From NCBI RefSeq assembly GCF_003334255.1, contig NZ_QOWU01000010.1: DNA of 64,000 nucleotides; one strand, given 5' to 3'. The position numbers and the translations under genes are program-made. Shown in pieces: positions 7,140 through 57,645 of this stretch; the stretch's first letter is position 1, and every line of letters starts with the position of its first letter. The notes under the pieces are model-generated. The model was not told where the DNA came from. It did no database searches and saw only the letters and a program-made list of their open reading frames with translations. Origin of the DNA: Escherichia coli (GTDB taxonomy: Bacteria > Pseudomonadota > Gammaproteobacteria > Enterobacterales > Enterobacteriaceae).

Positions 7140-9932
<2,793 letters not shown>

Positions 9933-43645: not shown

Positions 43646-43694
43646 TTTTTTTCGTGTTTTTTCAGTATGCGCATACTGGATATGCGAACAGATA

Positions 43695-44666: not shown

Positions 44667-44708
44667 AGCAATGCGCCGTAATACCTCACACCACGGCGCT
44701 GATAGTGA

Positions 44709-45014: not shown

Positions 45015-45036
45015 GTGCATTCTCCTAAACAAAAGA

Positions 45037-45113: not shown

Positions 45114-45201
45114 CTCAGTAAGAGGATGTAAACGACAACGCCCCGAACTGTTTGCGGCAGTAGCGGGGCGTCTAACCAAACCGTTAACAGGAGTAACGAT
45201 T

Positions 45202-45399
45202 ATGGCTGGAACACAGCATACCCCACGTCTGGCGCACACACAAACTGCCTTTGTGTGGCGTTTTCTGGCACTAAGTGCCGGAGAATCTCAAATCATCCAC
45301 GTAACCGCCTGGACGGAACGCGAAGCGCGTAGCCGTTGCCCGTCCGGTTGTGTTGCTGTATTCGCCGCCCGTATTCGTCAGGGGGTGTGCCATGCCTGA
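45202..45399 (+). CDS. Icd-like (P4 host cell-division inhibitor-like) small protein
   Basis: 65-aa ORF preceded by AGGAG. FVWRFLALSAGESQIIHVTAWTEREARSRCPSGCVAVFAARIR fits the Icd-like pattern (F.W.F.A....I.A.SE.EAR......V..FA.R) as I recall it. It is the only plausible part of the 377-aa track ORF. Confidence 0.5.
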   Translation: MAGTQHTPRLAHTQTAFVWRFLALSAGESQIIHVTAWTEREARSRCPSGCVAVFAARIRQGVCHA

Positions 45400-45712
45400 C
45401 ATGACCAATTACCAGTACCTGATTAATCCGCATTTTAACTGTGAGCATGATATTGCTAAAAAGGTTTATTCCGCTGCGGATGGGGCTACTGACAATATAT
45501 CAATGGCTGTTTCGTCAATTGGTAGCCTGATGTGGTATGCGTCAGAAAATAAGGAATATGACGAAAAGGCCATGCGCATTGATATGGGTAATATTGGTTT
45601 GTTACTGGCAATGCTTGGACATTTTGATATTTCGTTACGGTGCACCATTGAAAATGCCACAGATGCATTAAATGCTATAAAGAAAGCGAATACTGATTCA
45701 AATCGGGGATAA
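45392..45712 (+). CDS. Hypothetical protein (106 aa)
   Basis: The ATG at 45392 overlaps the preceding stop, suggesting translational coupling. I recognise no family. Confidence 0.5.
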   Translation: MPDMTNYQYLINPHFNCEHDIAKKVYSAADGATDNISMAVSSIGSLMWYASENKEYDEKAMRIDMGNIGLLLAMLGHFDISLRCTIENATDALNAIKKANTDSNRG

Positions 45713-45718
45713 ATAATC

Positions 45719-46018
45719 ATGAGAACGTATTTATCTGGCTTTACTGCCAGCGGTTATGCACACCCCAAAATTATCCCCGGCGCTATTTATCTGGATAAGA
45801 ACGGTAACAGAGTAACGGTAAAAGAACTGATGTTTGACCGTGTGTATTTTATTCGTGATGGCTATTCATTTCATAGTTCGCTGAACGTGGAGATCTTTAT
45901 TAGCAGATTCCGGCGGGAAATCCCGCTTTCCAGAAATAACCATGTGTCATGTATGGATGTTGATAAAAAACTACAGGAACTGAAAAACATGATTGCCGCG
46001 TGGAGAGAGCAGAAATGA
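45719..46018 (+). CDS. Hypothetical protein, possibly DUF4222-like (99 aa)
   Basis: The core GAIYLDKNGNRVTVKELMFDRVYFIRDGYSF resembles the DUF4222 pattern seen in P4-like islands (recalled from memory). Its stop overlaps the primase start (ATGA). Confidence 0.45.
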   Translation: MRTYLSGFTASGYAHPKIIPGAIYLDKNGNRVTVKELMFDRVYFIRDGYSFHSSLNVEIFISRFRREIPLSRNNHVSCMDVDKKLQELKNMIAAWREQK

Positions 46019-47832
46019 AAAAAGCGCCAAATTTAAAACACCAGCCGCGTGACAAAATGACGGAAGTCATCATTTTTGCGGGTAGTGATGCGTGGGCACA
46101 TGCGAAGCAGTGGCAGGAACAGGACGGGCGACTGGCTGGCGATAACGTGCCACCTGTCTGGCTTGGAGAGCAACAACTTGCCGAACTGGACAACCTGCAA
46201 ATCGTACCGGACGGACGCTATCGCGTGCGTCTCTACCAGGCGGGGTTATTGCGTCCGGGGCTTGTTAATACCATCGGGCAGAAACTGGCAGCGGCAGGTG
46301 TCAGGGATGCTGATTATTACCCTGAAGGAATGCACAGCCAGAAACGGGAGAACTGGCGCGAATATCTGGAACGTGAGCGGGGAGAGCTGGCGGAAAAGAA
46401 AAAGGTAGTTGAACTGCCTGTAAAGAAAAAAGAGCGGGTAAAAGACGATAACGCTTCATCACTGGCGCTTAACCAGATGGGAGCAAGTCAACGCGGCGAA
46501 GTTCTCCTGGCACATTATGGCGGTGAACTGGCGATTCATGCTGACTCTGACACTGTTCACTATTACAACGGCGTTGTATGGGAGCCAGTACAGGATAAAG
46601 AATTACAGCGAGCTATGGCGCAGATTTTCATTGATGCGGAGATCAGCTATTCGCAGAACGCCATTAAATCGGCGGTCGATACCATGAAGTTAAGTTTGCC
46701 TGTAATGGGGAATACAGCCCGTAACCTGATTGGATTCAGTAACGGTGTTTTTGATACCCGGACAGGCGATTTTCGGGAGCATAACAAAAACGACTGGTTG
46801 TTAATTGCCAGTGAATTACCTTTCAGCCCACCAGCAGAGGGGGAAACGCTGGCAACACATGCGCCGAATTTCTGGAAGTGGTTACGCCGTTCGGTGGCTG
46901 AGAATGACCGCAAGGCGGATCGCGTACTGGCTGCATTATTCATGGTGCTGGCGAACCGGTACGACTGGCAGTTATTCATTGAGGTAACAGGTCCAGGGGG
47001 AAGTGGTAAAAGCGTGATGGCGGAGATTTGCACCATGCTGGCGGGTAAGGCCAACACGGTATCGGCAAGCATGAAGGCGCTGGAAGATGCCAGGGAACGC
47101 GCGTTAGTGGTTGGCTTTTCGCTGATTATCATGCCGGATATGACCCGTTACGCTGGTGATGGCGCAGGAATTAAGGCCATTACAGGCGGTGACAAGGTGG
47201 CAATCGACCCGAAGCATAAAGCCCCCTACTCAACACGCATTCAGGCGGTAGTGTTGGCGGTGAACAATAACGCCATGTCATTCAGTGACCGCAGCGGGGG
47301 GATTTCACGTCGTCGGGTGATATTCAATTTTTCGGAGGTTGTACCGGAAAACGAACGCGACCCCATGCTGGCAGAAAAAATAGAAGGAGAGCTGGCGGTT
47401 GTGATTCGCCACCTGCTTACTCGTTTTTCTGACCAGGACGCAGCTAAACGCCTGCTGTATGAGCAGCAGAAATCAGAAGAAGCTCTGGTGATAAAACGCG
47501 AGGGCGATTCGCTGGTGGACTTCTGCGGCTATCTCATGTCGTCGGTAATGTGTGATGGTCTGTTAGTGGGTAATGCCGAAATTATTCCGTTCAGTCCGCG
47601 CAGGTATCTTTATCACGCCTATCTGGCATATATGAGGGCACACGGATTCGGTAAACCTGTAACACTGACGCGCTTCGGTAAAGATATGCCGGGGGCAATG
47701 GCGGAATATGGCAGGGAGTATATGAAACGGAAAACGAAGCACGGTTTGCGTTCAAACGTGACACTGACGGAGGAATCAGAAGACTGGATGCCATCATGTG
47801 TATCGGTCACTAATGACGATAGCAAAAATTAA
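46015..47832 (+). CDS. Replication initiator: primase/helicase of the P4-alpha / D5 NTPase type (PICI pri-rep)
   Basis: About 605 aa with Walker A VTGPGGSGKS and a Walker B-like FSLIIMPDM. The C-terminal half resembles the phage/plasmid primase P4-family domain, and the iteron origin follows immediately. Confidence 0.8.
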   Translation: MKKAPNLKHQPRDKMTEVIIFAGSDAWAHAKQWQEQDGRLAGDNVPPVWLGEQQLAELDNLQIVPDGRYRVRLYQAGLLRPGLVNTIGQKLAAAGVRDADYYPEGMHSQKRENWREYLERERGELAEKKKVVELPVKKKERVKDDNASSLALNQMGASQRGEVLLAHYGGELAIHADSDTVHYYNGVVWEPVQDKELQRAMAQIFIDAEISYSQNAIKSAVDTMKLSLPVMGNTARNLIGFSNGVFDTRTGDFREHNKNDWLLIASELPFSPPAEGETLATHAPNFWKWLRRSVAENDRKADRVLAALFMVLANRYDWQLFIEVTGPGGSGKSVMAEICTMLAGKANTVSASMKALEDARERALVVGFSLIIMPDMTRYAGDGAGIKAITGGDKVAIDPKHKAPYSTRIQAVVLAVNNNAMSFSDRSGGISRRRVIFNFSEVVPENERDPMLAEKIEGELAVVIRHLLTRFSDQDAAKRLLYEQQKSEEALVIKREGDSLVDFCGYLMSSVMCDGLLVGNAEIIPFSPRRYLYHAYLAYMRAHGFGKPVTLTRFGKDMPGAMAEYGREYMKRKTKHGLRSNVTLTEESEDWMPSCVSVTNDDSKN

Positions 47833-47844
47833 ACTTATGGAATA

Positions 47845-48069
47845 ACTGTTCACCACTGTTCACCCTGTCATAAATATCTTTTGTATCAGTATGTTATAGG
47901 GTGAACAGTTATTTATGAACTGTTCACCAAACTATTCACTGTTCACCTTTTTGATTGTTTATTGAGCTTCAAGGGTGAACAGTGGTGAATAGTTGGTGAA
48001 TAGTTTTTGTGAAACTGTTCACCCCTTAACATTATGAATTAAAAGATAAAATATCAAAAGGTGAACAGG
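47845..48069. repeat. Island replication origin: at least 10 copies of the 10-bp iteron ACTGTTCACC in both orientations, plus an AT-rich tract
   Basis: Direct copies start at 47845, 47855, 47919, 47938 and 48014. Inverted copies (GGTGAACAGT/G) start at 47900, 47974 and 48060. Degenerate copies (GGTGAATAGT) start at 47984 and 47995. An AT-rich stretch spans 48030-48058. Confidence 0.8.
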
Positions 48070-48119
48070 TGAAGGGTTAAAACGCAAAAATTTTAATTTA
48101 CTGCTGTGAGATAAAGCCT

Positions 48120-48365
48120 ATGACAGCGAAGCACACAAAAAAATCACAATCGCACGCCCTTGATTTGACGGAACACTGGTTAAGGGTGTCGATAAAAATC
48201 ATCGACCGCAACGCCGGGGAAGGATATGCGAAAGCACATCCCGAACTGATTAGCTCATTCATGACAACGGCAGCTGCAAACTTTGCCACGCTGACAGAAC
48301 GGGAGATTGCCGAAGCGGAACAGGTGACAACCATCAACGTTAAAACCGGAGAGCAGACAGCATGA
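48120..48365 (+). CDS. Hypothetical protein (81 aa)
   Basis: The ORF's stop overlaps the ssb start (ATGA at 48362-48365). I recognise no family. Confidence 0.5.
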   Translation: MTAKHTKKSQSHALDLTEHWLRVSIKIIDRNAGEGYAKAHPELISSFMTTAAANFATLTEREIAEAEQVTTINVKTGEQTA

Positions 48366-48772
48366 CAGCACAGATAGCAGCTTACGGGCGGCTGGTGGAC
48401 GACCCGCAGGTAAAACAGACCAGTAAGGGCACACCGATGACGCTGGCGCGTATGGCGGTATCGTTGCCATGTAGTCAGGCGCAGGATGGGCAGGCGACGT
48501 TATGGCTATCGGTCATCGCATTTGGTAAGCAGGCCGACTTCCTGGCTAAACATCAAAAAGGCGACGTTGCCAGCGTATCCGGCACGATGCAGGTCAGCCA
48601 GTGGACCGGACAGAACGGGGAAACGCGGCAGGGTTATCAGGTTATTGCAGACAGCGTAATCAGTGCCCGTGCGGCACGTCCTGGCGGGAACAGACGCAAA
48701 ACCACAGGCACACAGGGTAATCAGCCACCAGCGGGAGGCGATGACCCTTACGGTGACGGTATTCCGTTCTGA
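48362..48772 (+). CDS. ssb: Single-stranded DNA-binding protein (short, island-encoded)
   Basis: 136 aa with an OB-fold-like N-terminus (AAYGRLVDDPQVKQTSKGTPMTLARMAV), a Gly/Pro/Gln-rich linker and the acidic tip DDPYGDGIPF typical of bacterial and phage SSBs. Confidence 0.75.
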   Translation: MTAQIAAYGRLVDDPQVKQTSKGTPMTLARMAVSLPCSQAQDGQATLWLSVIAFGKQADFLAKHQKGDVASVSGTMQVSQWTGQNGETRQGYQVIADSVISARAARPGGNRRKTTGTQGNQPPAGGDDPYGDGIPF

Positions 48773-48782
48773 GGGGGTGGCG

Positions 48783-49055
48783 ATGGTACATGACCGCATA
48801 GCGGAAGAACTCGAGGCGAAAGGCTTTTACCGGAGGGCGGCGGCGCGATGGGGTGAAGTCATGCTGCTGGTGGAGACAGACAAGGAACGGCATCAGGTTA
48901 CGATGCGACGGCTGGAATGTTCCAGGAAGGCACAGAAGCCACCGGAGCCGCCGGATAACTTCGGAGACCTGAGAAAGGCAGTAGATCGCACTTATGCTGA
49001 AATGGGTATAGATGGTGTAAGCGATGAAATATGGCGTAATTACCCAGACAGCTAA
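48783..49055 (+). CDS. PerC-family transcriptional activator-like protein (90 aa)
   Basis: The internal ATG at 48783 is preceded by GAGGGGG. MVHDRIAEELEAKGFYRRAAARWGEVML matches the PerC/Pch N-terminal pattern (..AE.LE..G.YRRAA.RW..V) as I recall it. Confidence 0.55.
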   Translation: MVHDRIAEELEAKGFYRRAAARWGEVMLLVETDKERHQVTMRRLECSRKAQKPPEPPDNFGDLRKAVDRTYAEMGIDGVSDEIWRNYPDS

Positions 49056-49060
49056 TCAAC

Positions 49061-49085
49061 AGCCGGAGAAATCCGGCTTTTTTTG
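49061..49085 (+). terminator. Rho-independent terminator (copy 1 of a near-identical pair)
   Basis: AGCCGGA-gaaa-TCCGGCT hairpin followed by T8. Confidence 0.85.
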
Positions 49086-49179
49086 CACCAGTTGAAACGG
49101 TATGGCGCATTACCGGGTTTTCGTCACGGTCAGGCATAGTTACTATCTGAAACAAACAGACACAACAGAGGAAAAAACA

Positions 49180-49404
49180 ATGCCGATGAAATTTGATGAG
49201 ATATTAAAACAGCGTGATAAATACCATGCTGACAACATGGAGACGATGAGCATCAATGATTACCGCGCATTCCTGGAGACGGGCGCACTGATTGAAAAGG
49301 ATCAGCATGGTTTTGTGAGATGTGCTCTGTCCGGTGAAATGCTGGCGGTAAATCCTGAACAGATAGATGCATTGATAGAATTTCTGAAAGGGATCAGGGA
49401 CTGA
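49180..49404 (+). CDS. Hypothetical protein (74 aa) in a terminator-bracketed cassette
   Basis: The ATG at 49180 is preceded by GAGGAAAAAA, giving MPMKFDEILKQRDKYHADNMETMSINDYRAF. The gene is flanked by twin terminators. I recognise no family. Confidence 0.5.
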   Translation: MPMKFDEILKQRDKYHADNMETMSINDYRAFLETGALIEKDQHGFVRCALSGEMLAVNPEQIDALIEFLKGIRD

Positions 49405-49414
49405 GCACGCATAC

Positions 49415-49436
49415 AGCCGGAGCAATCCGGCTTTTT
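49415..49436 (+). terminator. Rho-independent terminator (copy 2)
   Basis: AGCCGGA-gcaa-TCCGGCT hairpin followed by T5. It is identical at 23 of 24 positions to the terminator at 49061. Confidence 0.85.
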
Positions 49437-49456
49437 GTCATTTTTTGTAAATTATT

Positions 49457-49484
49457 TGTTCGTGGTTGTTCCACGTTGTTCACT
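49457..49484 (+). promoter_or_regulatory. Internal copy of the island-end motif (TTGTTCGTGGTTGTTCCACGTTGTTCAC) upstream of the capsid operon
   Basis: It shares TTGTTCCACGTTGTT with 56969-56983 and resembles 42326-42350 and, in inverted orientation, 43695-43740. Confidence 0.45.
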
Positions 49485-49558
49485 GACAGGATCGGCATAT
49501 TTTACCCGAACTGAATCATGAGTATTCTCGCCCGTGGTGCCAGGACGCTGGGGCCACT

Positions 49559-49696
49559 TTCCCGCCTGTTAATGTGCTCGCCAATATTCATTACCAGGCG
49601 GGAAAACGATCGGTGCGATTGCTGATTTCCTTATGAAAAACGGTTGAGTTTTTGCCGCGTCCTGGAGTTCCTTACTTAACCCCAGGACTTTTTTTT
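49559..49696 (+). promoter_or_regulatory. Structured leader of the capsid operon: 10-bp stem-loop plus a terminator-like hairpin ending in T8 directly before the capsid ATG
   Basis: TTCCCGCCTG (49559-49568) pairs with CAGGCGGGAA (49595-49604). GTCCTGG (49659-49665) pairs with CCAGGAC (49682-49688) and is followed by T8 (49689-49696). The only SD-like AGGA (49684-49687) lies inside the descending arm. Confidence 0.55.
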
Positions 49697-50854
49697 ATGC
49701 CGAGAATAATCGAATTACGCCAGCAGAAAACCGCCATTAAAAATCAGATGCGCGACATGCTGGAGAACGCGGAAAAAGAAAACCGCAGCCTTAACGATGC
49801 AGAGGGCGCAAAATTTGACGAATTACGCGCTAAAGCTGAATCCCTCGATAAAGACATTTCCCGCCTTGAAGCCATTGCAGACGAAGAGCGCAGCAAGCCA
49901 GGTAAAAGCAGCCAGACCACTGACCCGGCAGAACTCCGCAACTACATCCTGACAGGTGAAACCCGCGCATTAAGTACAGGCGTTCCCGCTGATGGTGGTT
50001 ATACCGTTATCCCCGAACTGAACACCGAAATCATGCGAATGCTGACGGATGAATCCACCATGCGCCGCATCTGTACCGTGAAGAAAATCAGCAGCAACGA
50101 GTTTAAGCAGCTTGTTTCCGCTGGCGGTGCGACCGTTAACCACGGTGAAGAGGGTAAGACACGCGAACAGACCAGCACCCCGCAGATTAACGAGGTGAGC
50201 ATTAAGCTGTATCCGGTCTATGCGTACCCGCGCACCACACAGGAAATCGTGGATTTTTCCGATGTGGACATCCTTTCATGGCTGACGGGTGAGATTGGCG
50301 ACACCTTCACGGAAACCGAAGAAAGCGATCTGGTTGTGGGCGACGGTGACAAAAAAGCAAAAGGTTTTTTATCCGTACCCCGTGCAGAGAAGAACGACAA
50401 AGAGCGTGATTTTGGTACGTTGCAGGTAATTAAACCTTCCGAATCTCTGGCGTGGACATCTGCGGACCCGCTGATCGACCTGAAATTTGCATTACGTAAA
50501 AAATACCGCAAAAACGCGGTCTGGGTGGTTAACTCCACGACGGCGGCAAAACTTCAGAAGGTGAAGAACGCGAACGGTGATTACATCTGGCGCGACCGTT
50601 TACAGGCGGGTGATCCTGATACGTTGCTGGGCCTTCCGGTCGAATATCTGGAGTTTATGCCTGATAACGTTATTGCCCTGGGTGACTTCAAACGCGGTTA
50701 CTACATTGTTGATCACGAAACAGGTGTTCGCACCAGACCGGACAACCTCACAGAGCCGGGCTTCATCAAAATTTTCACGCAGAAATATTTAGGCGGTGGC
50801 GTGGTGGATTCGAACGCGATCAAGATTCTGGAACTGCCACAGGACGACGATTAA
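49697..50854 (+). CDS. Major capsid protein, HK97 fold/family, with an N-terminal coiled-coil (delta/scaffold-like) domain
   Basis: 385 aa from the ATG at 49697 (the track starts at 49652). The N-terminus IELRQQKTAIKNQMRDMLENAEKENRSLNDAEGAKFDELRAKAESLDKDISRLEAI is coiled-coil. The body (..GGYTVIPELNTEI.. YPRTTQEIVDFSDVDILSWL.. GLPVEYLEFMPD..) is typical of HK97-family capsid proteins, and the protease and portal genes are adjacent. Confidence 0.85.
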   Translation: MPRIIELRQQKTAIKNQMRDMLENAEKENRSLNDAEGAKFDELRAKAESLDKDISRLEAIADEERSKPGKSSQTTDPAELRNYILTGETRALSTGVPADGGYTVIPELNTEIMRMLTDESTMRRICTVKKISSNEFKQLVSAGGATVNHGEEGKTREQTSTPQINEVSIKLYPVYAYPRTTQEIVDFSDVDILSWLTGEIGDTFTETEESDLVVGDGDKKAKGFLSVPRAEKNDKERDFGTLQVIKPSESLAWTSADPLIDLKFALRKKYRKNAVWVVNSTTAAKLQKVKNANGDYIWRDRLQAGDPDTLLGLPVEYLEFMPDNVIALGDFKRGYYIVDHETGVRTRPDNLTEPGFIKIFTQKYLGGGVVDSNAIKILELPQDDD

Positions 50855-50864
50855 CAGCATACAG

Positions 50865-50884
50865 AAGGGGCTTAAAAGCCCCTT
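50865..50884 (+). terminator. Hairpin after the capsid gene (attenuator/terminator candidate)
   Basis: AAGGGGC-ttaaaa-GCCCCTT hairpin followed by TAGTGTTTT. Confidence 0.45.
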
Positions 50885-50893
50885 TAGTGTTTT

Positions 50894-51466
50894 ATGGGTG
50901 AAAAAATTATGAAGAGTATGGAAATCCGGTCATCGGAAATCACCACCAGCGCCAGCAACACGCTTACAGGCTACGTTGTTCGCTGGGATAAGCTTTCAGA
51001 GCTGCTATGGGGGGAGTTTTACGAAAAATTCCAGCGGGGAGCGTTTACTGAATGGCTTGCGGCGGGTAATGACGTTCGCGGCCTGTATGAGCATGACCAC
51101 AGCATGTTGCTGGGGCGTACCCGTTCCGGCACGCTGAAACTGGAAGAGGACGAAACAGGGTTACGCTTTGAACTGACCCCACCGGATACCAGTACAGGGC
51201 GCGACGTTATCGAACTGGTTAAGCGTGGGGACATCTCGGGGATGAGCTTTGGCTTTCGCTCCCGTAAGGATGTATGGGATACCACAACAGATCCATGCGT
51301 GCGCACCGTGCTGGTGGCGGAACTGTACGAAATTACCGTTACATCGGTACCGGCTTACCCCGATTCCGGCGTGGAGCTGGCCCGCCGTTCCCTGTATGAG
51401 CAGCACCCCGAAAAAATGCCGCGTGCGGATAATCGCCGCTGGTGGGTGGATTTAGCGGGGGTGTGA
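50894..51466 (+). CDS. Prohead maturation protease, HK97 family
   Basis: 190 aa (alternative start at 50909). The pattern GYVVRWDKLSE..FYEKFQRGAF....DVRGLYEHDHSMLLGRTRSGTLKLEEDETGLRFEL..PDTSTGRDVIELVKRGDISGMSFGF matches HK97 prohead proteases. Confidence 0.85.
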   Translation: MGEKIMKSMEIRSSEITTSASNTLTGYVVRWDKLSELLWGEFYEKFQRGAFTEWLAAGNDVRGLYEHDHSMLLGRTRSGTLKLEEDETGLRFELTPPDTSTGRDVIELVKRGDISGMSFGFRSRKDVWDTTTDPCVRTVLVAELYEITVTSVPAYPDSGVELARRSLYEQHPEKMPRADNRRWWVDLAGV

Positions 51467-51467
51467 T

Positions 51468-52679
51468 ATGTGGCTTTTCAGAAGAAAAAAAGAGCAGCGC
51501 AGCATGACGCTTGATGAATTTATGGCGCTGGCTGGCACATCGAACACGGGGGCGGGTGAGTACGTATCATCGGGGACAGCGGAATCACTGCCCGCCGTCA
51601 TGAACGCCGTGACGGTCATCTCTGAGGCGGTGGCTACCATGCCGTGTTACCTGTACCTGGTACGCAATGAGAAGGGGAAGGAGGCCCGCGAGTGGCTTGA
51701 TTCTCATCCGGTCGATCACATCCTCAACGAGCGCCCGAACGCGTGGCAGACTCCCTACCAGTTTAAGCGAATGATGATCCGCCACTGCCTGTTAAACGGT
51801 AATGCTTATGCGGTGATTCAGTGGGGGCGTGATGGTTTTCCGGTGGCTTTACATCCTTACCCGCCGCAGTCGGTGAACGTGGAGCAGACAGGCGAACACA
51901 ACTGGCGCTACTGCATCACTGACGCCTACACCGGAAACACCCGCAACTATTTACCGTGGGAGGTTCTCCACCTTCGTTACTCCACGGATGACGGTTTTAT
52001 GGGGCGCTCACCTGTAACCATCTGCCGCGAATCGCTGGGGCTTGGGCTGGCCCAACAACGCCACGGCGCGAGCGTGATGCGTGATGGCATGATGGCGGCA
52101 GGGGTTATCACGTCAGGCGAATGGCTGGACGGCGTGAAGGGCAAACAGGCATTAGCCGCACTGGAACGCTACAAAGGGGCCAGAAACGCCGGAAAAACGC
52201 CCATCCTTGAAGGGGGTATGAGCTATCAGCAGCTGGGCATGAGTAATCAGGATGCTGAATGGCTGGCCTCCCGTCGCTTCACCATTGAAGACATCGCCCG
52301 AATGTTCAACGTCTCGCCGATTTTTCTGCAGGAATACAGCAACAGCACCTACAGCAATTTCAGCGAGGCAAGCCGCGCATTTCTCACCATGACAATGCGC
52401 CCGTGGCTGGCGAACTTTGAGCAGCAGATAAAAAACGCCCTGCTGGTGGCCTCGCCTGTACCTGGTATCCGGTATCAGGTGGAGTTTGACAGCGCGGACC
52501 TGTTACGGGCCACACCTGGCGAACGCTTTGCCACCTATGAACGCGGCATCAAATCCGGCGTTATGTGCCCGAACGAAGCCCGCGAACGTGAAGGGCTGTC
52601 CCCGCGTGATGGTGGTGATGAGTTCAGCCAGGCATGGAAACAGGAAGTAAAAATCAGCGAGGGAGAAAAACCGGAATGA
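51468..52679 (+). CDS. Portal protein, HK97 family
   Basis: 403 aa. The conserved core (..NAYAVIQWG..G..L.P..P..V....DDGFMGRSPV....E..GLGLA......S.M..G......)  and the gene's position next to the protease fit HK97-family portals. Confidence 0.85.
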   Translation: MWLFRRKKEQRSMTLDEFMALAGTSNTGAGEYVSSGTAESLPAVMNAVTVISEAVATMPCYLYLVRNEKGKEAREWLDSHPVDHILNERPNAWQTPYQFKRMMIRHCLLNGNAYAVIQWGRDGFPVALHPYPPQSVNVEQTGEHNWRYCITDAYTGNTRNYLPWEVLHLRYSTDDGFMGRSPVTICRESLGLGLAQQRHGASVMRDGMMAAGVITSGEWLDGVKGKQALAALERYKGARNAGKTPILEGGMSYQQLGMSNQDAEWLASRRFTIEDIARMFNVSPIFLQEYSNSTYSNFSEASRAFLTMTMRPWLANFEQQIKNALLVASPVPGIRYQVEFDSADLLRATPGERFATYERGIKSGVMCPNEAREREGLSPRDGGDEFSQAWKQEVKISEGEKPE

Positions 52680-53014
52680 ACATAGGGCGACTGCGTGACA
52701 GGGTAACGATTCAGACCCTGAAACAGACCAGGGATATAACCGGCGAAATACTCGAAACGTGGGAGGACGGTCACACACTCTGGGCAAGCGTGAACATGAT
52801 CAGCAGCAAGGAGGCCATTTCATCGGGTGCAGAGCTGGCGATTGGTACCGTAAGGATCTGGATACGGTACCGGAAGGACATCAATGCCACCAGCCGGATA
52901 AAGGTCAGTACGGGGCCGCTGGCGGGGCGTGTACTGAATATCATCGGGCAGCCGCTGCCGGATGCCGCCAGGACACGCCTTGAAATTCTTTGTCGTGAGG
53001 GCGCGGAAAAATGA
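52676..53014 (+). CDS. Head-tail joining / head-closure protein (SPP1 gp16-like, PF05521-type)
   Basis: 112 aa from the ATG at 52676, which overlaps the portal stop. The RLRDRVTIQ...G.....W.....WA.V...S..E.......A.....I.IRYR.DI pattern is typical of this family. Confidence 0.65.
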   Translation: MNIGRLRDRVTIQTLKQTRDITGEILETWEDGHTLWASVNMISSKEAISSGAELAIGTVRIWIRYRKDINATSRIKVSTGPLAGRVLNIIGQPLPDAARTRLEILCREGAEK

Positions 53015-53307
53015 CAGAAGAACTTATCACCCTGGAAGAAGTGAAACTCCATTGCCGCATCGATGGCGACGAGGAAGACCAGTTAATCAGCGGATACATC
53101 GCCGCATCGCTTGAGGCGTGCCAGATACACATAGGCAGGCGCTTTGATGACGGGCTGGAGTTCACGCCAGCCATAAAGATTGGCTGCATGATGTTTATCG
53201 CTCACCTGTATGAAAATCGCCAGATTGTCGCGGATAACGCAAAAACACGCGTACCCATGACGATTGGTGCACTCTGGACGGCTTACCGTGATGTGGGGGT
53301 GTACTGA
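53011..53307 (+). CDS. gp6-like head-tail connector / DNA-packaging protein
   Basis: 98 aa. The N-terminus ITLEEVKLHCRIDGDEEDQLISGYIAASLEACQIHIGR matches the Phage_connect_1-type signature. The gene is 4-nt coupled to its neighbours. Confidence 0.65.
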   Translation: MTEELITLEEVKLHCRIDGDEEDQLISGYIAASLEACQIHIGRRFDDGLEFTPAIKIGCMMFIAHLYENRQIVADNAKTRVPMTIGALWTAYRDVGVY

Positions 53308-53747
53308 TGCCGTGGCAACCATTAAGACGATGCACAGAACCAGGCTGTAACAGGCGCGTGAAGTCCGGCAAGTGTGAGGAGCACAGGCGGGCGGCATGGC
53401 GTGCAGAGGATGCCAGACGAGGACACCGCCGCGCGCGTGGGTACTCCAGACAGTGGGACAAATACCGCGCCATGTATCTGAGTAAAAACCCGTTATGCGT
53501 GCGATGCCTTGAGAAGGGGATATATACGCCCGCCGTGGTGGTGGATCACATTATCCCGATTAATGGCGGTGATGATGTTCTCTTCTGGCCCGAATGGAAC
53601 CATCAGCCATTGTGCCAGGCGTGCCATAACCAGAAAACGAAATGGCTTGATCCGGCAACAAAAAGCAAGCGTGCCGCAGGTGGATTTCGTGAAGAGGAAG
53701 AACGGGCCGCTAACCGCAATAACTGGATGTATGACGCTGATGAATGA
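53307..53747 (+). CDS. HNH endonuclease (packaging-associated)
   Basis: 146 aa with CxxC..C Zn-finger-like motifs and the HNH core VVDHIIPINGGDDVLFWPEWNHQPLCQACHNQKT. It sits directly upstream of terS/terL, as in HNH-dependent cos phages. Confidence 0.85.
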   Translation: MPWQPLRRCTEPGCNRRVKSGKCEEHRRAAWRAEDARRGHRRARGYSRQWDKYRAMYLSKNPLCVRCLEKGIYTPAVVVDHIIPINGGDDVLFWPEWNHQPLCQACHNQKTKWLDPATKSKRAAGGFREEEERAANRNNWMYDADE

Positions 53748-53913
53748 GCGGGAACAAAACCGCCTTATCCGTGGACTTATAAGGCAGCGTGACGCATGGA
53801 AGACACAGGAAACAGGGCATAAAGATAAAGCGTCAGGACGCGCAGAACGCATCACAGCGAAGCGATTAACCGACCGTGACCGCGAGGTTATGGAATGTTT
53901 CCGCAATCGCTGA
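53731..53913 (+). CDS. Hypothetical small protein (60 aa) between HNH and terS
   Basis: The ATG at 53731 overlaps the HNH 3' end in another frame, giving MTLMNEREQNRLIRGLIRQRDAWK.... I recognise no family, and it could be spurious. Confidence 0.3.
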   Translation: MTLMNEREQNRLIRGLIRQRDAWKTQETGHKDKASGRAERITAKRLTDRDREVMECFRNR

Positions 53914-54035
53914 TGAGGCTGTATGACGGGGTGGGGGGCGTTTTCAGGACAAACCCGACCCCGCCGGGCACCGACCGCCTCCTCAAATTTTTATGCACGG
54001 GAATTTTTTGAAAAATAATCTGACGAAAAATAAGC
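53914..54035 (+). other. Candidate cos region (GC-rich block followed by an A/T tract) upstream of terS
   Basis: The sequence GACGGGGTGGGGGGCG...CCCGACCCCGCCGGGCACCGACCGCCTCC followed by CAAATTTTTATGCACGGGAATTTTTTGAAAAATAATC is non-coding. The position between HNH and terS is where HK97-like phages carry cos. Confidence 0.35.
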
Positions 54036-54392
54036 ATGGCAAGACCACCGAAAGCCCCCGCCTACCTGGATGACATCGCCGTGAAGCAGTGGCGGGAAAA
54101 ATCGCGGCAGCTTGCGGAACGGGGAGACCTGACCCCCGCCGACTGGAGCAATCTGGAACTGTATTGTGTCAACTACTCCATTTACCGGAAAGCCGTCGCA
54201 GACCTTGCGGCGCGCGGGTTCAGCATTGTTAACAGTCAGGGCGGCGAGAGCAGAAACCCCGCATTAAGCGCGAAATCAGACGCTGAAAGGGTGATGATAA
54301 AAATGGCCTCCTTGCTCGGTTTTGACCCGATAAGCCGCCGTAAAAACCCACCGGAAACAGAAGAAGAGGACGAGCTTGACCGCCTGGAATAA
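54036..54392 (+). CDS. terS: Terminase small subunit, P27 family
   Basis: 118 aa. MARPPKAPAYLDDIAVKQWREKSRQLAERGDLTPADWSNLELYCVNYSIYRKA...NPALSA....MIKMASLLGFDPISRRK matches the P27-family TerS pattern. Confidence 0.85.
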   Translation: MARPPKAPAYLDDIAVKQWREKSRQLAERGDLTPADWSNLELYCVNYSIYRKAVADLAARGFSIVNSQGGESRNPALSAKSDAERVMIKMASLLGFDPISRRKNPPETEEEDELDRLE

Positions 54393-56037
54393 GTACGCAG
54401 AAGACGTAAAAACGGGCAAAATTCAGGCCTGTAAACGGTTAAAACAGGCCGTTAAACGGTACTTTTCGGACCTTAAAAGCCCCCTTTACACGTTCGATCG
54501 TGAGGTTGTGGATCGGTTTATTGCCTTTTCCAGGGTGTGCCCGCACGTAAAAGGGCCGATGCGTGGCAGACCCATTGAGCTGGAGCCGTGGCAGCAGTTC
54601 GCCTTTGCGTGCATCCTCGGCTTTAAGGTTAAGGCCACCGGACGGCGCAAATATACGAGCGCCTTTATCGAAGTGCCGCGCAAAAATGCTAAATCAACGA
54701 CCGCCGCGATTCTGGCTAACTGGTTTCTGATTATGGAGAACGGTCAGCAGGATATTTACACCGCAGCGGTGAGCCGTGACCAGGCGAGGATCGTATTTGA
54801 TGATGCGCGTCAGATGTGCATTTTATCCCGACCGTTACGCAGGCGGGTGAATATTCAGGCGCATAAGGTGATACACCCGAAAACCAACAGCCTGTTAAAG
54901 CCGCTGGCAGCAAAAGCGGCAACTATCGAGGGCACAAACCCCAGTCTTTCTATCGTGGACGAATACCACCTACACCCCGACAACGGCGTATATTCTGCGC
55001 TTGAACTGGGGATGGGGGCACGTCCCGAAGGGCTGTTATTTGCCATTACCACATCGGGAAGTAACGTCGTTTCAGCCTGTAAGCAGCATTATGATTATTG
55101 CTGCCAGATCCTGGACGGCGAAGAGGTTAACGAATCGCTTTTTGTGCTGATTTACGAACTGGACGACGAAAACGAGGTTGATGATCCGGAGATGTGGATA
55201 AAGGCGAACCCTAATATCGATGTTTCCGTGGATCGTGAAAAACTGGCCTCAACCATTCAGAAAGCGCGGGGTATTCCGTCGCAATGGGTGGAGATGATGA
55301 CAAAGCGATTTAATATCTGGTGTCAGGGGACTACCCCGTGGATGGGTAATGGTGCATGGGCTGAGTGTGCCGGAACGTTCACGGAGGAAGATTTACACGG
55401 TCAGGAGTGTTACGCGGGGCTGGACTTATCATCAACCAGCGATATTTCCAGCGTGTGCTATGCCTTTCCGGTCGGTAAAACCATTATGATGATTTCCCGT
55501 CATTATCTGCCGGAGTTCCAGCTACAGAACCCCGCCAATAAAAACCGCGCTGTCTATCGTCAGTGGGCTAAAGCAGGCTGGATACGCACAACGCCTGGCG
55601 ACTGCATTGATTACGACCGGATCAGAGATGACATCATGCAGGACGCGGAGAAATTTAATATCAGGCTGGTGGGCTTTGATACGTGGAACGCCACGCATCT
55701 CAGAACGCAATTACAGGGGGCAGGTTTTGAGGTGGAGCCGTTCCCGCAAACCTACCTCAGATTCAGTCCGGCGGCGAAATCGTTCGAAGTTTTTGTTAAC
55801 CGCAGGGTGATTGTGCATCGTGGCGATCCGGTGTTGTCCTGGTCGATGAGTAACGTCGTGATGCAGAGTGACGCGAACGCCAATATCAAGCCGAACAAGA
55901 AAAAATCACCGAACAAGATAGACCCGAGCGTGGCGGCGCTGATGGCGTTTGGTACATTCCAGGCAGAGCATGAGGATTTTGCTTTTGATATAAGCGACAG
56001 CCACCGCCAGAAACTGGAAGAATTTAGCGGGGTGTAA
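54376..56037 (+). CDS. terL: Terminase large subunit (ATPase/nuclease)
   Basis: 553 aa with a TTG start 7 nt after GAGGA, overlapping the terS end. A Walker A-like VPRKNAKST, a DEYH Walker B/coupling motif (SIVDEYH) and a C-terminal nuclease-like region are present. The size and position are typical of TerL. Confidence 0.85.
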   Translation: MTAWNKYAEDVKTGKIQACKRLKQAVKRYFSDLKSPLYTFDREVVDRFIAFSRVCPHVKGPMRGRPIELEPWQQFAFACILGFKVKATGRRKYTSAFIEVPRKNAKSTTAAILANWFLIMENGQQDIYTAAVSRDQARIVFDDARQMCILSRPLRRRVNIQAHKVIHPKTNSLLKPLAAKAATIEGTNPSLSIVDEYHLHPDNGVYSALELGMGARPEGLLFAITTSGSNVVSACKQHYDYCCQILDGEEVNESLFVLIYELDDENEVDDPEMWIKANPNIDVSVDREKLASTIQKARGIPSQWVEMMTKRFNIWCQGTTPWMGNGAWAECAGTFTEEDLHGQECYAGLDLSSTSDISSVCYAFPVGKTIMMISRHYLPEFQLQNPANKNRAVYRQWAKAGWIRTTPGDCIDYDRIRDDIMQDAEKFNIRLVGFDTWNATHLRTQLQGAGFEVEPFPQTYLRFSPAAKSFEVFVNRRVIVHRGDPVLSWSMSNVVMQSDANANIKPNKKKSPNKIDPSVAALMAFGTFQAEHEDFAFDISDSHRQKLEEFSGV

Positions 56038-56050
56038 TGAGGTCAGCAGC

Positions 56051-56332
56051 ATGACAGAAGCCGAAATAACGGGATTAATCCGCCGCGTTGCCGGAATCAG
56101 CCAGCAGGCTGACGAACAGGCCACGCAGCCGGACAGCGTGACAGCCGAAAACTATGCGCGTGTTGTTGCTGAGGTGATGCGCCGTGATGGTATAGAACTT
56201 AATGGCGTGGATATGCGCAACATACGAACCAGAGTTCTTGAGTTGCTGGCCTACCGTCGCCGCGTGGAGATGTATCGGGAGAAGGAGAAAATAACGTACC
56301 ACTGGAAGAAGCCGGAGCGGTTGCGGCGGTAA
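56051..56332 (+). CDS. Hypothetical protein (93 aa) downstream of terL
   Basis: ORF starting MTEAEITGLIRRVAGISQQADEQ with a basic C-terminus. I recognise no family. Confidence 0.45.
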   Translation: MTEAEITGLIRRVAGISQQADEQATQPDSVTAENYARVVAEVMRRDGIELNGVDMRNIRTRVLELLAYRRRVEMYREKEKITYHWKKPERLRR

Positions 56333-56589
56333 CTGGTTGATATTCCCGACGGACCAAAAATGGGTGGCTACATCCCTCGCTTCTGAGGACTGTTAACAAG
56401 CTGCCTGAAAGACAGTCACAAACTACGAAATTTTCGCAGTTTAATTAATGATCAGCTTAATCGCTAACCCGCTGATATTTTCGGAAACCTCAATTTGAGG
56501 AAGTCGGCGCGGTAACTCGCTGAACTTTAAGCAAAGTGCAAAATTGCGCTTGCTGAATAATCATTATGATTACGCAGATGATTAAGGAA

Positions 56590-56890
56590 TGACCGAAGGC
56601 GGAAATTCGCCTGTGGTTAATGGGGGAGTTGCAGATCTGCAACTCGACCATGAAACTACGGAAACTACCCGTAGTTTGGGTAGTAAGAGTAACACCCAGA
56701 TTTTGGGTCTTACTCGTGATACCCAAATTTGGGGTATCAGTGGCAACCATAACGACTTTCGTTACGGTTGATGCTTTTACCCCATTGGGGGAAAGGTATT
56801 ACGATAATCATAACACCTACCGAACAGGTAAAGCCCACCAGCCTGATTAACGTTTAACCGGAAAAAAATTCCGGTAGGTGGGGATCCCCA
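56590..56890. other. Palindrome-dense non-coding segment (at least 8 consecutive perfect or near-perfect hairpins)
   Basis: GGCG/CGCC lies at about 56598-56611. GAGTTGCAGATCTGCAACTC is a perfect 20-bp palindrome at 56626-56645. AAACTACGG (56653-56661) pairs with CCGTAGTTT (56669-56677). Further elements are ACCCAGATTTTGGGT, GATACCCAAATTTGGGGTATC, AACCATAACGA/TCGTTACGGTT, ACCGGAA-aaaaa-TTCCGGT and TGGGGATCCCCA (56878-56889). Confidence 0.6.
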
Positions 56891-56968
56891 TATCGACATT
56901 AACGCCCCTCATGAATTGGTGCGCTTCCCCCTGGAAAGATGATCCGCCTGTATATTTCTTGTGTCTAT

Positions 56969-57028
56969 TTGTTCCACGTTGTTTCATACAGTGCACCGAA
57001 CGGTGTAGTCACTGGTGTAGTCATTTTG
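56969..57028 (+). promoter_or_regulatory. Right subterminal repeat block (TTGTTCCACGTTGTTTCA ... GGTGTAGTCAC-T-GGTGTAGTCAT)
   Basis: This is an imperfect direct copy of 42326-42395. The tandem 11-mers lie at 57002-57012 and 57014-57024. Confidence 0.55.
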
Positions 57029-57097
57029 CGATTTTTGGCACTTTTTGCGGTGAAAATTATTTAATTAAATCAACGTGTTATGTGAAATAAGTTATAT

Positions 57098-57106
57098 ATA
57101 ACAGCA
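57098..57106 (+). repeat. Right copy of the 9-bp junction direct repeat ATAACAGCA (attR core candidate)
   Basis: It is identical to 42232-42240, and the chromosome resumes here in the tqsA frame. Confidence 0.8.
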
Positions 57107-57234
57107 ATAAATAATGCGAGAATAAACGGCACGATGATCTCGGCGGCAAAACGGATACCGCAGAGAATAATGACCAGCATTCCCAACATAATGACGATTT
57201 TTAGGCCATTGAGCGTGATGATCGGCTTTGCCAT
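57098..57234 (-). pseudogene. tqsA: tqsA 5' fragment (codons 1 to about 46), with its native promoter side
   Basis: The minus-strand ATG at 57234 gives [46 protein letters not shown]. The frame then runs into island sequence (YNLFHITR, stop at about 57070). Confidence 0.88.
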
Positions 57235-57645
57235 GCTTGTCCCCGTTTTTTCTTCCTTTGCTAATAATAATGTCTTTTTCGCTCCGTCATCATAACGAAA
57301 ATCAAACCGCTCAGGTAAAGAAGTGAAAATATTTTGAGTTAATTCTTAAGCTATGATACAAATCAGGCGTGTTCAACTACCGAGGACAATTATCATCCGC
57401 GATGACGAGAAGCAACACTGCGGATAATTGTAATATTATGGACAATTTGTTCAGGACGTTATTTTCTACATTTACCCATCTTCGTACCTCATCCACTATC
57501 TTGCTCGTAGGTGAGCAGCACTGGCGCAACGCGCTTTAGTCCTTTCTTCTGCCAAAGCTTGCGCTATGCGCGGGGCTTGACCACTTTACTTTGGTTTCGC
57601 TGAATTAAGCGAAAATTAAAATAATTCTCTTGCAGGAGAAGGACA

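What the first reader, a model, noticed from the sequence alone, without database searches (positions are those of the whole stretch)
56340..57000. About 0.7 kb of palindrome-dense non-coding DNA fills the right arm after terL
Seen in sequence: between the last plausible ORF (ending 56332) and the right subterminal repeats there is no convincing gene. The overlapping ORFs on both strands are stop-free because of sequence symmetry. Instead there is a chain of perfect or near-perfect inverted repeats. These include a 20-bp perfect palindrome GAGTTGCAGATCTGCAACTC (56626-56645). A 9-bp stem AAACTACGG/CCGTAGTTT has a loop (AAACTAC) that repeats the stem sequence. Two related palindromes, ACCCAGATTTTGGGT and ACCCAAATTTGGGGT, lie about 30 bp apart. 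Other elements are AACCATAACGA/TCGTTACGGTT, ACCGGAA(A5)TTCCGGT nested in a 9-bp long-range pair CACCTACCG/CGGTAGGTG, and TGGGGATCCCCA. This density is far above what I see elsewhere in the window. Inference, with competing possibilities: a highly structured ncRNA, an array of dimer-binding sites (for example terminase cosB-like or partition/centromere-like sites), or single-strand DNA hairpins used during replication or packaging. None of these is established.
Basis: seen in the sequence. Interest (0 to 1): 0.6.

Follow-up and report, generated by a model that had tools for sequence, protein, structure and literature searches.

The report
Hairpin-rich non-coding end of a phage satellite
The palindrome-dense 0.7 kb is real: it is the gene-free right end of an E. 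coli phage satellite (a capsid-forming PICI), built from reshuffled stem-loop modules that many related satellites share, but a close, experimentally mobile relative lacks the main hairpin block, so that block is not needed for transfer.

Summary
Observation confirmed. Window 56601-56800 is the second most structured of 1277 windows, and every palindrome listed is at its stated place. The region is the non-coding right arm of a ~14.9-kb capsid-forming PICI inserted in tqsA. This is the family's known 3' accessory (defence) hot spot, empty here. It is a mosaic of three parts.

1. Three ~48-nt "stop-codon units": a conserved box, TAAC-N3-YTGA-NNYT, plus a short hairpin. The stem sequence varies between copies and islands, which is genuine covariation.
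2. A sharply bounded ~120-nt chain of four hairpins (56620-56738). It occurs in 706 of 5426 complete E. coli genomes, in several PICI types, and in all 112 contexts with the last gene upstream it lies on that gene's strand.
3. An integrase-linked attP arm.

No Rfam family, cos site, origin iteron, promoter or terminator accounts for it. The prototype EcCIEDL933 has a 97.8%-identical packaging module and is mobile, yet lacks the hairpin chain.

Best reading (about 0.4): a structured 3' UTR or insulator of the rightward operon, in a recombination-prone zone. Plain recombination debris and a trans-acting RNA remain open. Arrays of dimer-binding sites are disfavoured.

The parts
56051..56332 (+). 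Last gene of the island: a 93-aa protein of unknown function (PHROG 1561), directly after terL. It is the fixed upstream neighbour of the non-coding modules.
   Evidence: ORF list. phrog_1561 hit at E = 2.9e-56 with no Pfam hit. AlphaFold model is three helices at low confidence, pLDDT 64.6. The family is almost confined to Escherichia/Shigella.
56330..56367 (+). Repeat unit 1. The box TAACTGGTTGATATT starts with the ORF's stop codon TAA. It is followed by a hairpin, GACCAAAAATGGGT, degraded by one mutation; relatives have GCCCAAAAATGGGT.
   Evidence: Box scan. Comparison of units.
56420..56442 (.). Near-palindrome AAACTACGAAATTTTCGCAGTTT. It has the same arm sequence as hairpin HP2 of the core and is a perfect palindrome in relative L276.
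   Evidence: Window sequence. L276 sequence.
56465..56512 (+). Repeat unit 2: box TAACCCGCTGATATT plus hairpin CCTCA-ATT-TGAGG (56488-56500). The box contains one TAACCCGC motif, identical to the origin iteron of DUF927-type PICIs.
   Evidence: (repeat family D1).
56513..56552 (+). Repeat unit 3: box TAACTCGCTGAACTT plus hairpin AAGTGCA-AAAT-TGCGCTT, which has one U.G pair on the + strand.
   Evidence: (repeat family D1).
56553..56577 (.). Palindrome CTGAATAATCAT-T-ATGATTACGCAG. It recurs in other right ends, sometimes as GGTCATGATGACC.
   Evidence: inverted repeat I7..
56590..56619 (+). Hairpin HP0 (ACCGAAGGCGGAAATTCGCCTGTGGT). It is a homologue of the terminator-like GC hairpin that follows the core in most other PICIs. 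Here it lies upstream of the core and has no T tail.
   Evidence: Fold. Terminator-like hairpin at L003 12151-12176. Alignment.
56620..56738 (+). Conserved hairpin core: HP1 56620-56651, HP2 56653-56677, HP3 56678-56724, and the alternative HP4' 56718-56738. It is a discrete module with sharp borders and several different flanks on each side.
   Evidence: Found in 706 of 5426 complete E. coli genomes at 803 places. Alignments. 93% of cells paired against 30-40% for slid controls. Co-oriented with the ORF in all 112 contexts that have it upstream, out of 119 examined.
56730..56784 (+). Long imperfect hairpin HP4, including AACCATAACGA / TCGTTACGGTT. It is followed by GATGCTTTTACC, a weak terminator-like tail. 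It belongs to the integrase-linked module, not to the core.
   Evidence: (inverted repeat I2). The right border of the core falls inside it.
56742..56950 (.). Module C, shared at about 90% with islands that have the same integrase family. It holds the nested palindrome 56814-56880, TGGGGATCCCCA at 56879-90, and a minus-strand Chi (CCACCAGC, 56835-42) inside an 18-nt sequence repeated at 55660 and 44456.
   Evidence: Module map. Integrases. Repeats I6, I17 and D20. Chi positions.
56952..57027 (+). attP P arm: three TTGTKYC repeats at 10-bp phase (56959-56985) and two GGTGTAGTCA repeats (57002-57023). It is mirrored at 76% identity near attL (42319-42394).
   Evidence: repeat families D1, D2..
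57098..57106 (.). attR core ATAACAGCA, a direct repeat of 42232-42240, where the two halves of tqsA meet the island.
   Evidence: The minus-strand reading of tqsA resumes at 42239. Its N-terminal part ends near 57095.

Best explanation
The 0.7 kb is the non-coding right arm of a capsid-forming PICI, a phage satellite. It lies between the last gene of the island's rightward operon and attR. Related islands carry accessory or defence genes at this position; here the hot spot is empty.

Shown: the DNA is a recombination mosaic of three module types.
1. Tandem 'stop-codon units'. Each is a copy of the 3' end of the 93-aa gene, with a conserved box and a short hairpin whose stem sequence is free to vary.
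2. A discrete ~120-nt chain of four hairpins.
3. An attP arm that travels with the integrase type.

Inferred mechanism: the hairpins form in the single-stranded transcript that reads out of the operon. Together they act as a structured 3' UTR or insulator. That is, they would block 3'-exonucleases and help to end or confine transcription before attR, or before attP and int in the excised circle. At the DNA level, the repeated units and neighbouring Chi sites would provide the homology by which right-end cassettes are swapped between satellites.

The hairpin chain is an optional module. It is not part of the machinery for induction, replication, packaging or transfer.
For: Location and identity:
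- The island has int, alpA-like, primase, SSB, an HK97-type head module, HNH, terS, terL and the 93-aa ORF, and is inserted in tqsA.
- PICIs are reported to carry immune systems at their 5' or 3' ends (PMC11364771).
- Relative L152 has an Abi_C/AbiJ gene directly after the core.

Mosaic structure:
- Forty distinct right ends share modules in different combinations.
- The core has at least four different left flanks and three different right flanks, with sharp borders.
- Some islands hold two cores 434 bp apart around a partial origin block.
- One island lost the ORF between two Chi-containing sequences.

Repeat units:
- The first unit overlaps the stop codon.
- One unit in L279 still carries 20 nt of the ORF's 3' end.
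- 65% of 97 distinct units have a perfect stem of at least 5 bp at the same place, against 7% after shuffling, with at least 10 unrelated stem sequences.

A transcript-level role is plausible:
- The core is on the ORF's strand in all 112 contexts that have the ORF upstream, out of 119 examined, and never opposite.
- In the common arrangement the core sits between the stop codon and a terminator-like hairpin with 11 pairs and a T-rich tail.
- No promoter is predicted for it.
- One-sided stem changes give G.U on the + strand more often than on the - strand: 8 against 5 types in the core and 20 against 12 in the units.
- Loop-only changes and 9- and 11-nt loop deletions keep the HP2 stem.
- GATACCC/GGGTATC became GATCCCC/GGGGATC in two backgrounds.

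Optional status: EcCIEDL933 lacks the core and is fully mobile.
Against: - No transcript data exist.
- The + strand bias in wobble pairs is not statistically significant.
- Formal covariation in the core is nil. Two pairs change on both sides, no better than shuffles, because the copies are 75-100% identical.
- Stems and linkers of the core are conserved in primary sequence, more than a mere exonuclease barrier would need.
- In this window there is no canonical terminator after the hairpins.
- Unit hairpins are weak (mean -5.9 kcal/mol) and lack U tails on the + strand.
- About two thirds of right ends that have the ORF lack the core. Any role is therefore dispensable, and the DNA could be neutral.
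Confidence: 0.4

Rival explanations
1. Neutral recombination debris. The right end is a scrapyard left by repeated cassette exchange in the accessory hot spot. The hairpins are leftovers of terminators and gene ends, with no present function in this island.
For: - Mosaic structure, ORF-end remnants and a stray origin iteron inside unit 2.
- The unit 1 hairpin is already degraded.
- HP0 is a displaced terminator homologue without its T tail.
- The core is absent from a fully mobile sister island.
- The number of units per island ranges from 0 to 7.
Against: - The core is kept at 90% identity or more in hundreds of genomes, across PICI subfamilies and in Salmonella and Citrobacter, with intact stems.
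- Unit hairpins keep complementarity while their sequence changes, which implies selection on pairing.
- Orientation relative to the ORF is invariant.
Confidence: 0.25
2. A trans-acting structured RNA. In this reading the ~120-nt hairpin chain is a 3'-UTR-derived small RNA processed from the operon transcript. It would regulate host, helper-phage or satellite genes, or act as a decoy.
For: - In most PICIs it lies between a stop codon and a terminator-like hairpin, the usual layout of 3'-UTR-derived sRNAs.
- Primary sequence of the linkers is conserved, for example GTAGTTTGGGTAGTAA, which is invariant even in the 75%-identity variant.
- It folds very stably.
- It is widespread: 13% of complete E. 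coli genomes.
Against: - No Rfam match even at relaxed thresholds.
- No promoter, and in this window no terminator.
- No covariation support.
- No GGA enrichment, so it is not a CsrB-like sponge.
- No report in the PICI or EHEC sRNA literature that was searched.
Confidence: 0.15
3. Single-stranded DNA hairpins used in replication, as priming or single-strand initiation signals, or in concatemer processing.
For: - The islands encode a primase and an SSB.
- Both strands fold equally well.
- In some islands two cores flank a partial origin iteron block.
Against: - The island's origin, with P4-like TGTTCACC iterons, lies 8.6 kb away at 47831-48048, and none of its iterons occurs in the right end.
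- The same core is found with three different replicases: primase, DUF927 and RepA-type.
- Replication of EcCIEDL933, which lacks the core, is normal.
Confidence: 0.08
4. An array of binding sites for dimeric proteins on double-stranded DNA, such as TerS/cosB-like, partition-like, AlpA or repressor operators.
For: - There are perfect palindromes of 14-20 bp.
- The arm sequence AAACTACG / CGTAGTTT occurs twice, at 56420-42 and 56653-77.
- Arm sequences are conserved.
Against: - Five or more unrelated palindromes would need as many proteins.
- Spacing between the HP2 arms is 7 nt here and 2 nt in relatives.
- Unit stems change sequence freely.
- There is no lambda cosN here, and in a relative cosN sits upstream of the terS-like gene.
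- The core is shared by islands with different packaging, replication and integration modules.
Confidence: 0.05

Closest known systems
REP/BIME-type intergenic palindromes and 3'-UTR stem-loop mRNA stabilisers of enterobacteria (comparison from general knowledge)
   Same: Repeated short hairpins placed just after stop codons, co-oriented with the upstream gene. They occur in tandem clusters and are structure-conserved. They plausibly act on the transcript as exonuclease barriers and are also substrates for recombination.
   Different: - The sequence is unrelated to the E. coli REP consensus.
- In the loci examined the elements lie at the right ends of PICI satellites, not dispersed through the chromosome.
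- Each unit carries a conserved non-palindromic box, and the ~120-nt core is a fixed chain of four different hairpins.
PICI 3' accessory / immune hot spot (Fillol-Salom et al., as cited in PMC11364771)
   Same: Same position, between the last packaging gene and attR. A relative carries an Abi_C/AbiJ gene there.
   Different: The hot spot is described for its genes. The conserved non-coding modules that frame it were not mentioned in the papers I could search. In this island the hot spot holds no gene at all.
Integron attC sites
   Same: Arrays of recombination-associated elements whose hairpin structure, not sequence, is conserved, next to a short conserved box. They are associated with cassette turnover.
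   Different: - There is no IntI integrase in the island.
- The box (TAAC-N3-YTGA-NNYT) is not the RYYYAAC / GTTRRRY pair.
- Units often follow one another with no cassette between them.
- Junctions look like homologous or illegitimate exchange, not site-specific exchange.
Phage P4 ori/crr pair
   Same: A satellite with a P4-alpha-like primase and TGTTCACC iterons. Some related PICIs carry a second iteron cluster at the right end.
   Different: This island's right end has no TGTTCACC iteron. The single TAACCCGC in unit 2 belongs to a different replicon type.
Lambda sib retroregulation and other att-proximal RNA hairpins
   Same: A structured RNA element placed next to the attachment site, so that its linkage to int changes between the integrated and excised states.
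   Different: Here the hairpins would lie upstream of int in the circle, not downstream. No RNase III-type long stem is present. This comparison is untested.

Membership tests
Any Rfam 15 RNA family | Covariance-model score at or above the family's gathering threshold | tested here: not met
   No hits in the whole window. Only chance-level hits (E = 3.5-7.4, far below gathering scores) in 56000-57300. Nothing in the right ends of L003, L277, L152 or L279.
Intrinsic (Rho-independent) terminator | GC-rich stem followed at once by a U tract | tested here: not met
   The window scan finds only two weak sites, about the number expected from shuffles. Unit hairpins have 1.3 T in the next 8 nt on the + strand and 3.0 on the - strand, with mean dG of -5.9 kcal/mol. 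The neighbouring GC hairpin in L003 does qualify, but its window homologue HP0 has no T tail.
Lambda-type cos site | cosN GGGCGGCGACCT with flanking cosQ and cosB | tested here: not met
   No match with up to 2 mismatches in 56340-57000. In relative L003 an exact cosN lies at 10725, upstream of the terS-like gene and not in the right end.
P4-type origin / crr | Clustered TGTTCACC iterons bound by the alpha-like primase | tested here: not met
   Iterons cluster at 47831-48048 only. None shares a repeat family with the right end.
CsrB/RsmZ-type protein sponge RNA | Many GGA motifs, enriched and exposed in hairpin loops | tested here: not met
   9 GGA in 468 nt against 7.7 expected (p = 0.38). 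Relatives also show no convincing enrichment: five of six p values are 0.12-0.95 and one short 205-nt stretch (L276) gives p = 0.04.
Protein-coding gene (small ORFs 56589-56771, 56620-56850, 56490-56750) | Reading frame conserved in relatives; family match | tested here: not met
   No significant Pfam or PHROG hit. Indels of 9 and 11 nt and one of 1 nt occur inside the ORFs in relatives. RefSeq leaves the stretch unannotated in most genomes.
PICI 3' accessory hot spot | Lies between the last packaging-module gene and attR of a PICI; relatives carry accessory or defence genes there | tested here: met
   Island anatomy. att core. Abi_C/AbiJ gene at this position in L152. Literature statement.
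Integron attC | R''/R' core sites RYYYAAC / GTTRRRY and an IntI integrase nearby | tested here: not met
   The only recombinase in the island is a tyrosine-type (not IntI) integrase. Unit boxes read GGTAAC..YTGAT. No cleavage or recombination assay was possible.
Structured RNA supported by covariation | Compensatory changes in stems beyond phylogenetic expectation | tested here: inconclusive
   Core: 93% of cells paired, but only 2 pairs with two-sided change, no better than shuffles. Units: clear stem covariation across at least 10 stem types, but the strand cannot be assigned; G.U against A.C is 20:12.

The most novel reading that the evidence does not exclude
The ~120-nt four-hairpin module (56620-56738) may be a previously undescribed satellite-borne functional nucleic-acid element. 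It would most likely be a 3'-UTR-derived structured RNA that acts in trans on the helper phage, the host or competing elements. It would spread as a self-contained cassette among unrelated PICI lineages and across enterobacterial genera.
Probability: 0.15. Interest if true: 0.7.

Novelty: new variant of a known kind. Interest (0 to 1): 0.35.

Why it matters
PICIs and cf-PICIs are major vehicles of gene transfer and anti-phage defence in enterobacteria. Their 3' end is where defence cargo is loaded.

If the conserved stem-loop modules frame and insulate that hot spot, they would help explain two things. One is how cargo is exchanged between satellites. The other is how the late operon is kept from reading into the host chromosome, or into int after excision.

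The modules also give a simple DNA marker for PICI right ends: the box-plus-hairpin unit and the ~120-nt core. This could improve satellite boundary calling.

If instead the core is a trans-acting RNA, it would be among the first non-coding effectors of Gram-negative PICIs. Showing that it is dispensable for mobility narrows the search to accessory or regulatory roles.

Tried and rejected
- Known RNA family: rejected. Rfam gave nothing at gathering or relaxed thresholds, in the window and in four relatives.
- Lambda-like cos site or the PICI cosB recognised by Rpp-TerS: rejected.
- Second origin or crr: rejected for this island.
- CsrA sponge: rejected.
- Tandem array of terminators on either strand: not supported.
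- Esr41 or another EHEC island sRNA: rejected. Esr41 lies in SpLE1, has an Rfam model, and that model does not hit here.
- Hidden small gene: rejected.
- Phage origin: no match in 50,697 phage genomes, even in distant mode.
- Plasmids: only three E. coli records match, and one is a chromosome-sized 4.9-Mb record filed as a plasmid.
- Tandem Repeats Finder does not detect the units because they are too divergent.
- Widening diversity failed. The 93-aa protein family is nearly Escherichia-specific, and the metagenome scan returned only E. coli-like copies. Covariation in the core therefore could not be tested properly.
- Structure of the 93-aa protein: the model confidence was too low to use for a fold search.
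Full report
**Observation**

The last ORF ends at 56332. RefSeq annotates nothing between it and the tqsA fragment in an island whose right end is 100% identical.

The stretch is exceptional within the window:
- 56590-56790 folds at -96.7 kcal/mol (z = -9.6) on the + strand and -91.2 kcal/mol (z = -10.3) on the - strand.
- Of 1277 sliding 200-nt windows, 56601-56800 is the second most structured after GC correction (z = -5.4). Only the island's replication origin ranks higher.
- The bin 56501-57000 has 14 perfect inverted-repeat seeds, against a mean of 1.1 per 500 bp.

**Context**

The window is E. coli chromosome. From about 42241 to 57097 lies a ~14.9-kb island flanked by a 9-bp direct repeat, ATAACAGCA, that splits tqsA.

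Its genes, in order, are: integrase, AlpA-like regulator, Icd-like, DUF4222, P4-alpha-like primase, SSB, PerC, HK97-type capsid, protease, portal, connectors, HNH, P27-type TerS, TerL and a 93-aa protein. This is a capsid-forming PICI (cf-PICI), the satellite family defined on EcCIEDL933 (bioRxiv 10.1101/2022.09.08.507074).

The finding is the non-coding DNA between the last gene and attR. PICIs are reported to carry immune systems at their 5' or 3' ends (PMC11364771). A related island (L152) has an Abi_C/AbiJ abortive-infection gene exactly here. The region is therefore the family's 3' accessory hot spot, empty in this island.

**Anatomy: a mosaic**

I compared 40 distinct right ends fetched through the 93-aa protein. 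The 0.7 kb breaks into modules that assort independently.

*Module A (56330-56560)* holds three copies of a ~48-nt unit.
- Each unit has a conserved box, TAAC-N3-YTGA-NNYT, followed about 8 nt later by a short hairpin.
- The first box starts with the stop codon of the 93-aa gene.
- One unit in a relative still carries 20 nt of the gene's 3' end. The units are therefore serial copies of 'gene end plus hairpin'.
- Islands in this sample have 0 to 7 units; some zero counts reflect loci cut off at the ORF.

*Module C (56742-56950) plus the P arm (56952-57027)* is shared at about 90% with islands that have the same integrase family. It is absent from islands with other integrases.
- The P arm has three TTGTKYC repeats at 10-bp phase and two GGTGTAGTCA repeats.
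- The same set is mirrored beside attL. These are presumably Xis/AlpA-type and integrase arm-type sites (inference).

**The hairpin core**

Distribution:
- The core is present in 706 of 5426 complete E. coli genomes, at 803 places. It is mostly 90-100% identical, with a 75% variant.
- It is also present in Salmonella and Citrobacter PICIs.
- It is absent from 50,697 phage genomes.
- It occurs in cf-PICIs, in DUF1441-type PICIs, in EcCICFT073-like PICIs and in PICIs embedded in prophage late genes.
- In all 112 contexts that have the 93-aa gene upstream, out of 119 distinct contexts examined, the core lies on that gene's strand. It is never on the opposite strand.
- About two thirds of right ends that have the gene lack the core.

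Borders:
- The borders are sharp, at the foot of HP1 and just after GGGTATCRGTGG.
- There are at least four unrelated left flanks and three right flanks.
- In most islands a Chi site (GCTGGTGG) abuts the left border.
- In some islands two cores lie 434 bp apart around a partial copy of the DUF927-type origin iterons.

In the commonest arrangement the core sits between the stop codon and a terminator-like hairpin with 11 pairs and a T-rich tail. That places it inside a 3' UTR. In this window the homologue of that hairpin (HP0) lies upstream of the core and has lost its tail.

**Is the structure selected?**

For the core the answer is inconclusive.
- 93% of cells pair in the proposed helices, against 30-40% for slid controls.
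- Only two pairs change on both sides, no better than shuffles. The copies are too alike.

Suggestive details:
- Changes concentrate in loops.
- HP2 lost 9 or 11 loop-side nucleotides in some lineages yet kept the stem AAACTAC / GTAGTTT.
- GATACCC / GGGTATC became GATCCCC / GGGGATC in two backgrounds, with the single-change form GATACCC / GGGGATC also present among the sequences.
- HP3 is not maintained in the 75% variant.

For the repeat units the evidence is clear.
- 65% of 97 distinct units have a perfect stem of at least 5 bp at the same position, against 7% after shuffling (maximum 15.5% in 200 trials).
- The stems come in at least ten unrelated sequences.
- Pairing in a single-stranded nucleic acid, or cruciform potential, is therefore under selection there.

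The strand cannot be assigned firmly. One-sided changes give G.U more often on the + strand, 8 against 5 types in the core and 20 against 12 in the units. This is not significant.

**What it is not**

- No Rfam family matches.
- There is no lambda-type cosN. In a relative, cosN lies upstream of the terS-like gene. The published PICI cos sites are defined by lambda-like cosN and cosQ sequences with a PICI-specific cosB (PMC6739421, PMC6092414).
- There are no origin iterons. The island's P4-like TGTTCACC iterons are at 47831-48048.
- No promoter is predicted on the + strand, and there is no canonical terminator.
- Unit hairpins are weak and lack U tails.
- GGA motifs are not enriched.
- No conserved reading frame or protein family is present.
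- Arrays of dimer-binding sites are unlikely. The palindromes are all different, arm spacing varies, and stems covary.

**Dispensability**

EDL933 carries one cf-PICI, between roxA and phoQ. Its packaging module is 97.8% identical to this island's over 7.26 kb, and its capsid and TerS proteins are identical. This is EcCIEDL933, which is induced by HK106 and HK446, replicates, forms small capsids and transfers at high frequency.

Its 857-bp right end contains seven units and module C but no hairpin core. The core is not required for induction, replication, packaging or transfer.

**Most likely mechanism**

Shown:
- position after the last gene;
- fixed orientation relative to that gene;
- modular mosaic structure;
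- selected hairpins in the units;
- optional status of the core.

Inferred:
- The hairpins act in the read-through transcript as a structured 3' UTR or insulator. They would block exonucleases and confine transcription before attR, or before attP and int in the excised circle.
- The repeated units and Chi sites act at the DNA level as homology for exchanging right-end cassettes.

I give this reading about 0.4. The rivals are neutral debris (0.25), a trans-acting 3'-UTR-derived RNA (0.15), single-strand DNA signals (0.08) and protein-binding arrays (0.05).

**Comparison with known systems, and novelty**

Functionally the closest analogues are REP/BIME-type palindromes and 3'-UTR stabiliser hairpins. 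In position, the region is the PICI 3' accessory hot spot. Superficially the units recall integron attC sites, but no defining attC feature is met.

I found no description of these non-coding modules in the PICI papers or EHEC sRNA papers that could be searched. I rate it a new variant of a known kind.

It is a useful marker, and a possible cis element of satellite right ends. It is of moderate interest unless an RNA with a trans function is demonstrated.

**Limits**

- No expression data were available.
- The sequences are nearly all from one species complex.
- The single genome-wide scan for the protein returned one locus.
- Covariation in the core therefore remains untestable with the present data.

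Noticed in passing
window 42241-57097 (Chi positions: + strand 43300, 44461, 47511, 48391, 48866, 51310, 51438, 52442, 55665; - strand 46828, 48725, 50943, 52887, 56835): The island holds 14 Chi sites (GCTGGTGG) in about 14.9 kb, against 6 in the 49 kb of flanking chromosome. An extended Chi-containing sequence, ATCAGGCTGGTGGGC(TTT), occurs three times: at 44455 (+), 55659 (+) and 56830-47 (-). This may protect linear or rolling-circle satellite DNA from RecBCD.
   Followed up: partly
window 42326-42350, 49456-49480, 56959-56985: Three direct TTGTKYC repeats at 10-bp phase occur in both att arms. A similar tract, with one strict match at 49466, lies about 220 bp upstream of the capsid gene (repeat family D1). 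They are candidate AlpA/Xis-type binding sites that would link excision and late-operon activation.
   Followed up: partly
window 47831-48048: The replication origin lies directly after the primase gene. It has direct and inverted TGTTCACC iterons, the same octamer as P4 ori/crr (from memory). It is the most structured 200-nt window of the 64 kb.
   Followed up: partly
window 49059-49082 and 49413-49436: Two nearly identical terminator-like hairpins, ACAGCCGGAG(A/C)AATCCGGCTTTTT, lie 354 bp apart, bracketing a small ORF just upstream of the capsid operon (repeat family D8). They are possible regulated termination points for the late operon.
   Followed up: no
L100 rc 7960-8160; also L089, L112, L128: Some PICIs carry a partial second copy of the DUF927-type origin at the right end, between two copies of the hairpin core. 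It has three direct and three inverted GCGGGTTA iterons with an AT-rich spacer. The layout is reminiscent of P4 ori plus crr.
   Followed up: partly
L087 3800-9100; L152 10100-10960: Several core-bearing PICIs are inserted inside prophage late genes: terminase, portal and capsid fragments lie directly after attR. This fits the 'helper-embedded PICI' type described in PMC10111431.
   Followed up: no
L279 3277-3330: In one core-less island the first unit's hairpin is a full intrinsic terminator, AAAACCACGAATCAGTGGTTTTTAC. This shows that the unit hairpin position can serve as the operon terminator in some lineages.
   Followed up: no
L003 15587-15614: An isolated Rfam CRISPR-DR4 match (45.8 bits) lies between clpA and tRNA-Ser in the chromosomal flank of a related locus. 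It is unrelated to the finding.
   Followed up: no
window 42417 versus L001 2251: The reference island in strain G1/2 is 100% identical over the right-end 668 bp, but it is offset by about 166 nt relative to the window at the left end. The two islands therefore differ by an internal indel somewhere between int and the right arm.
   Followed up: no
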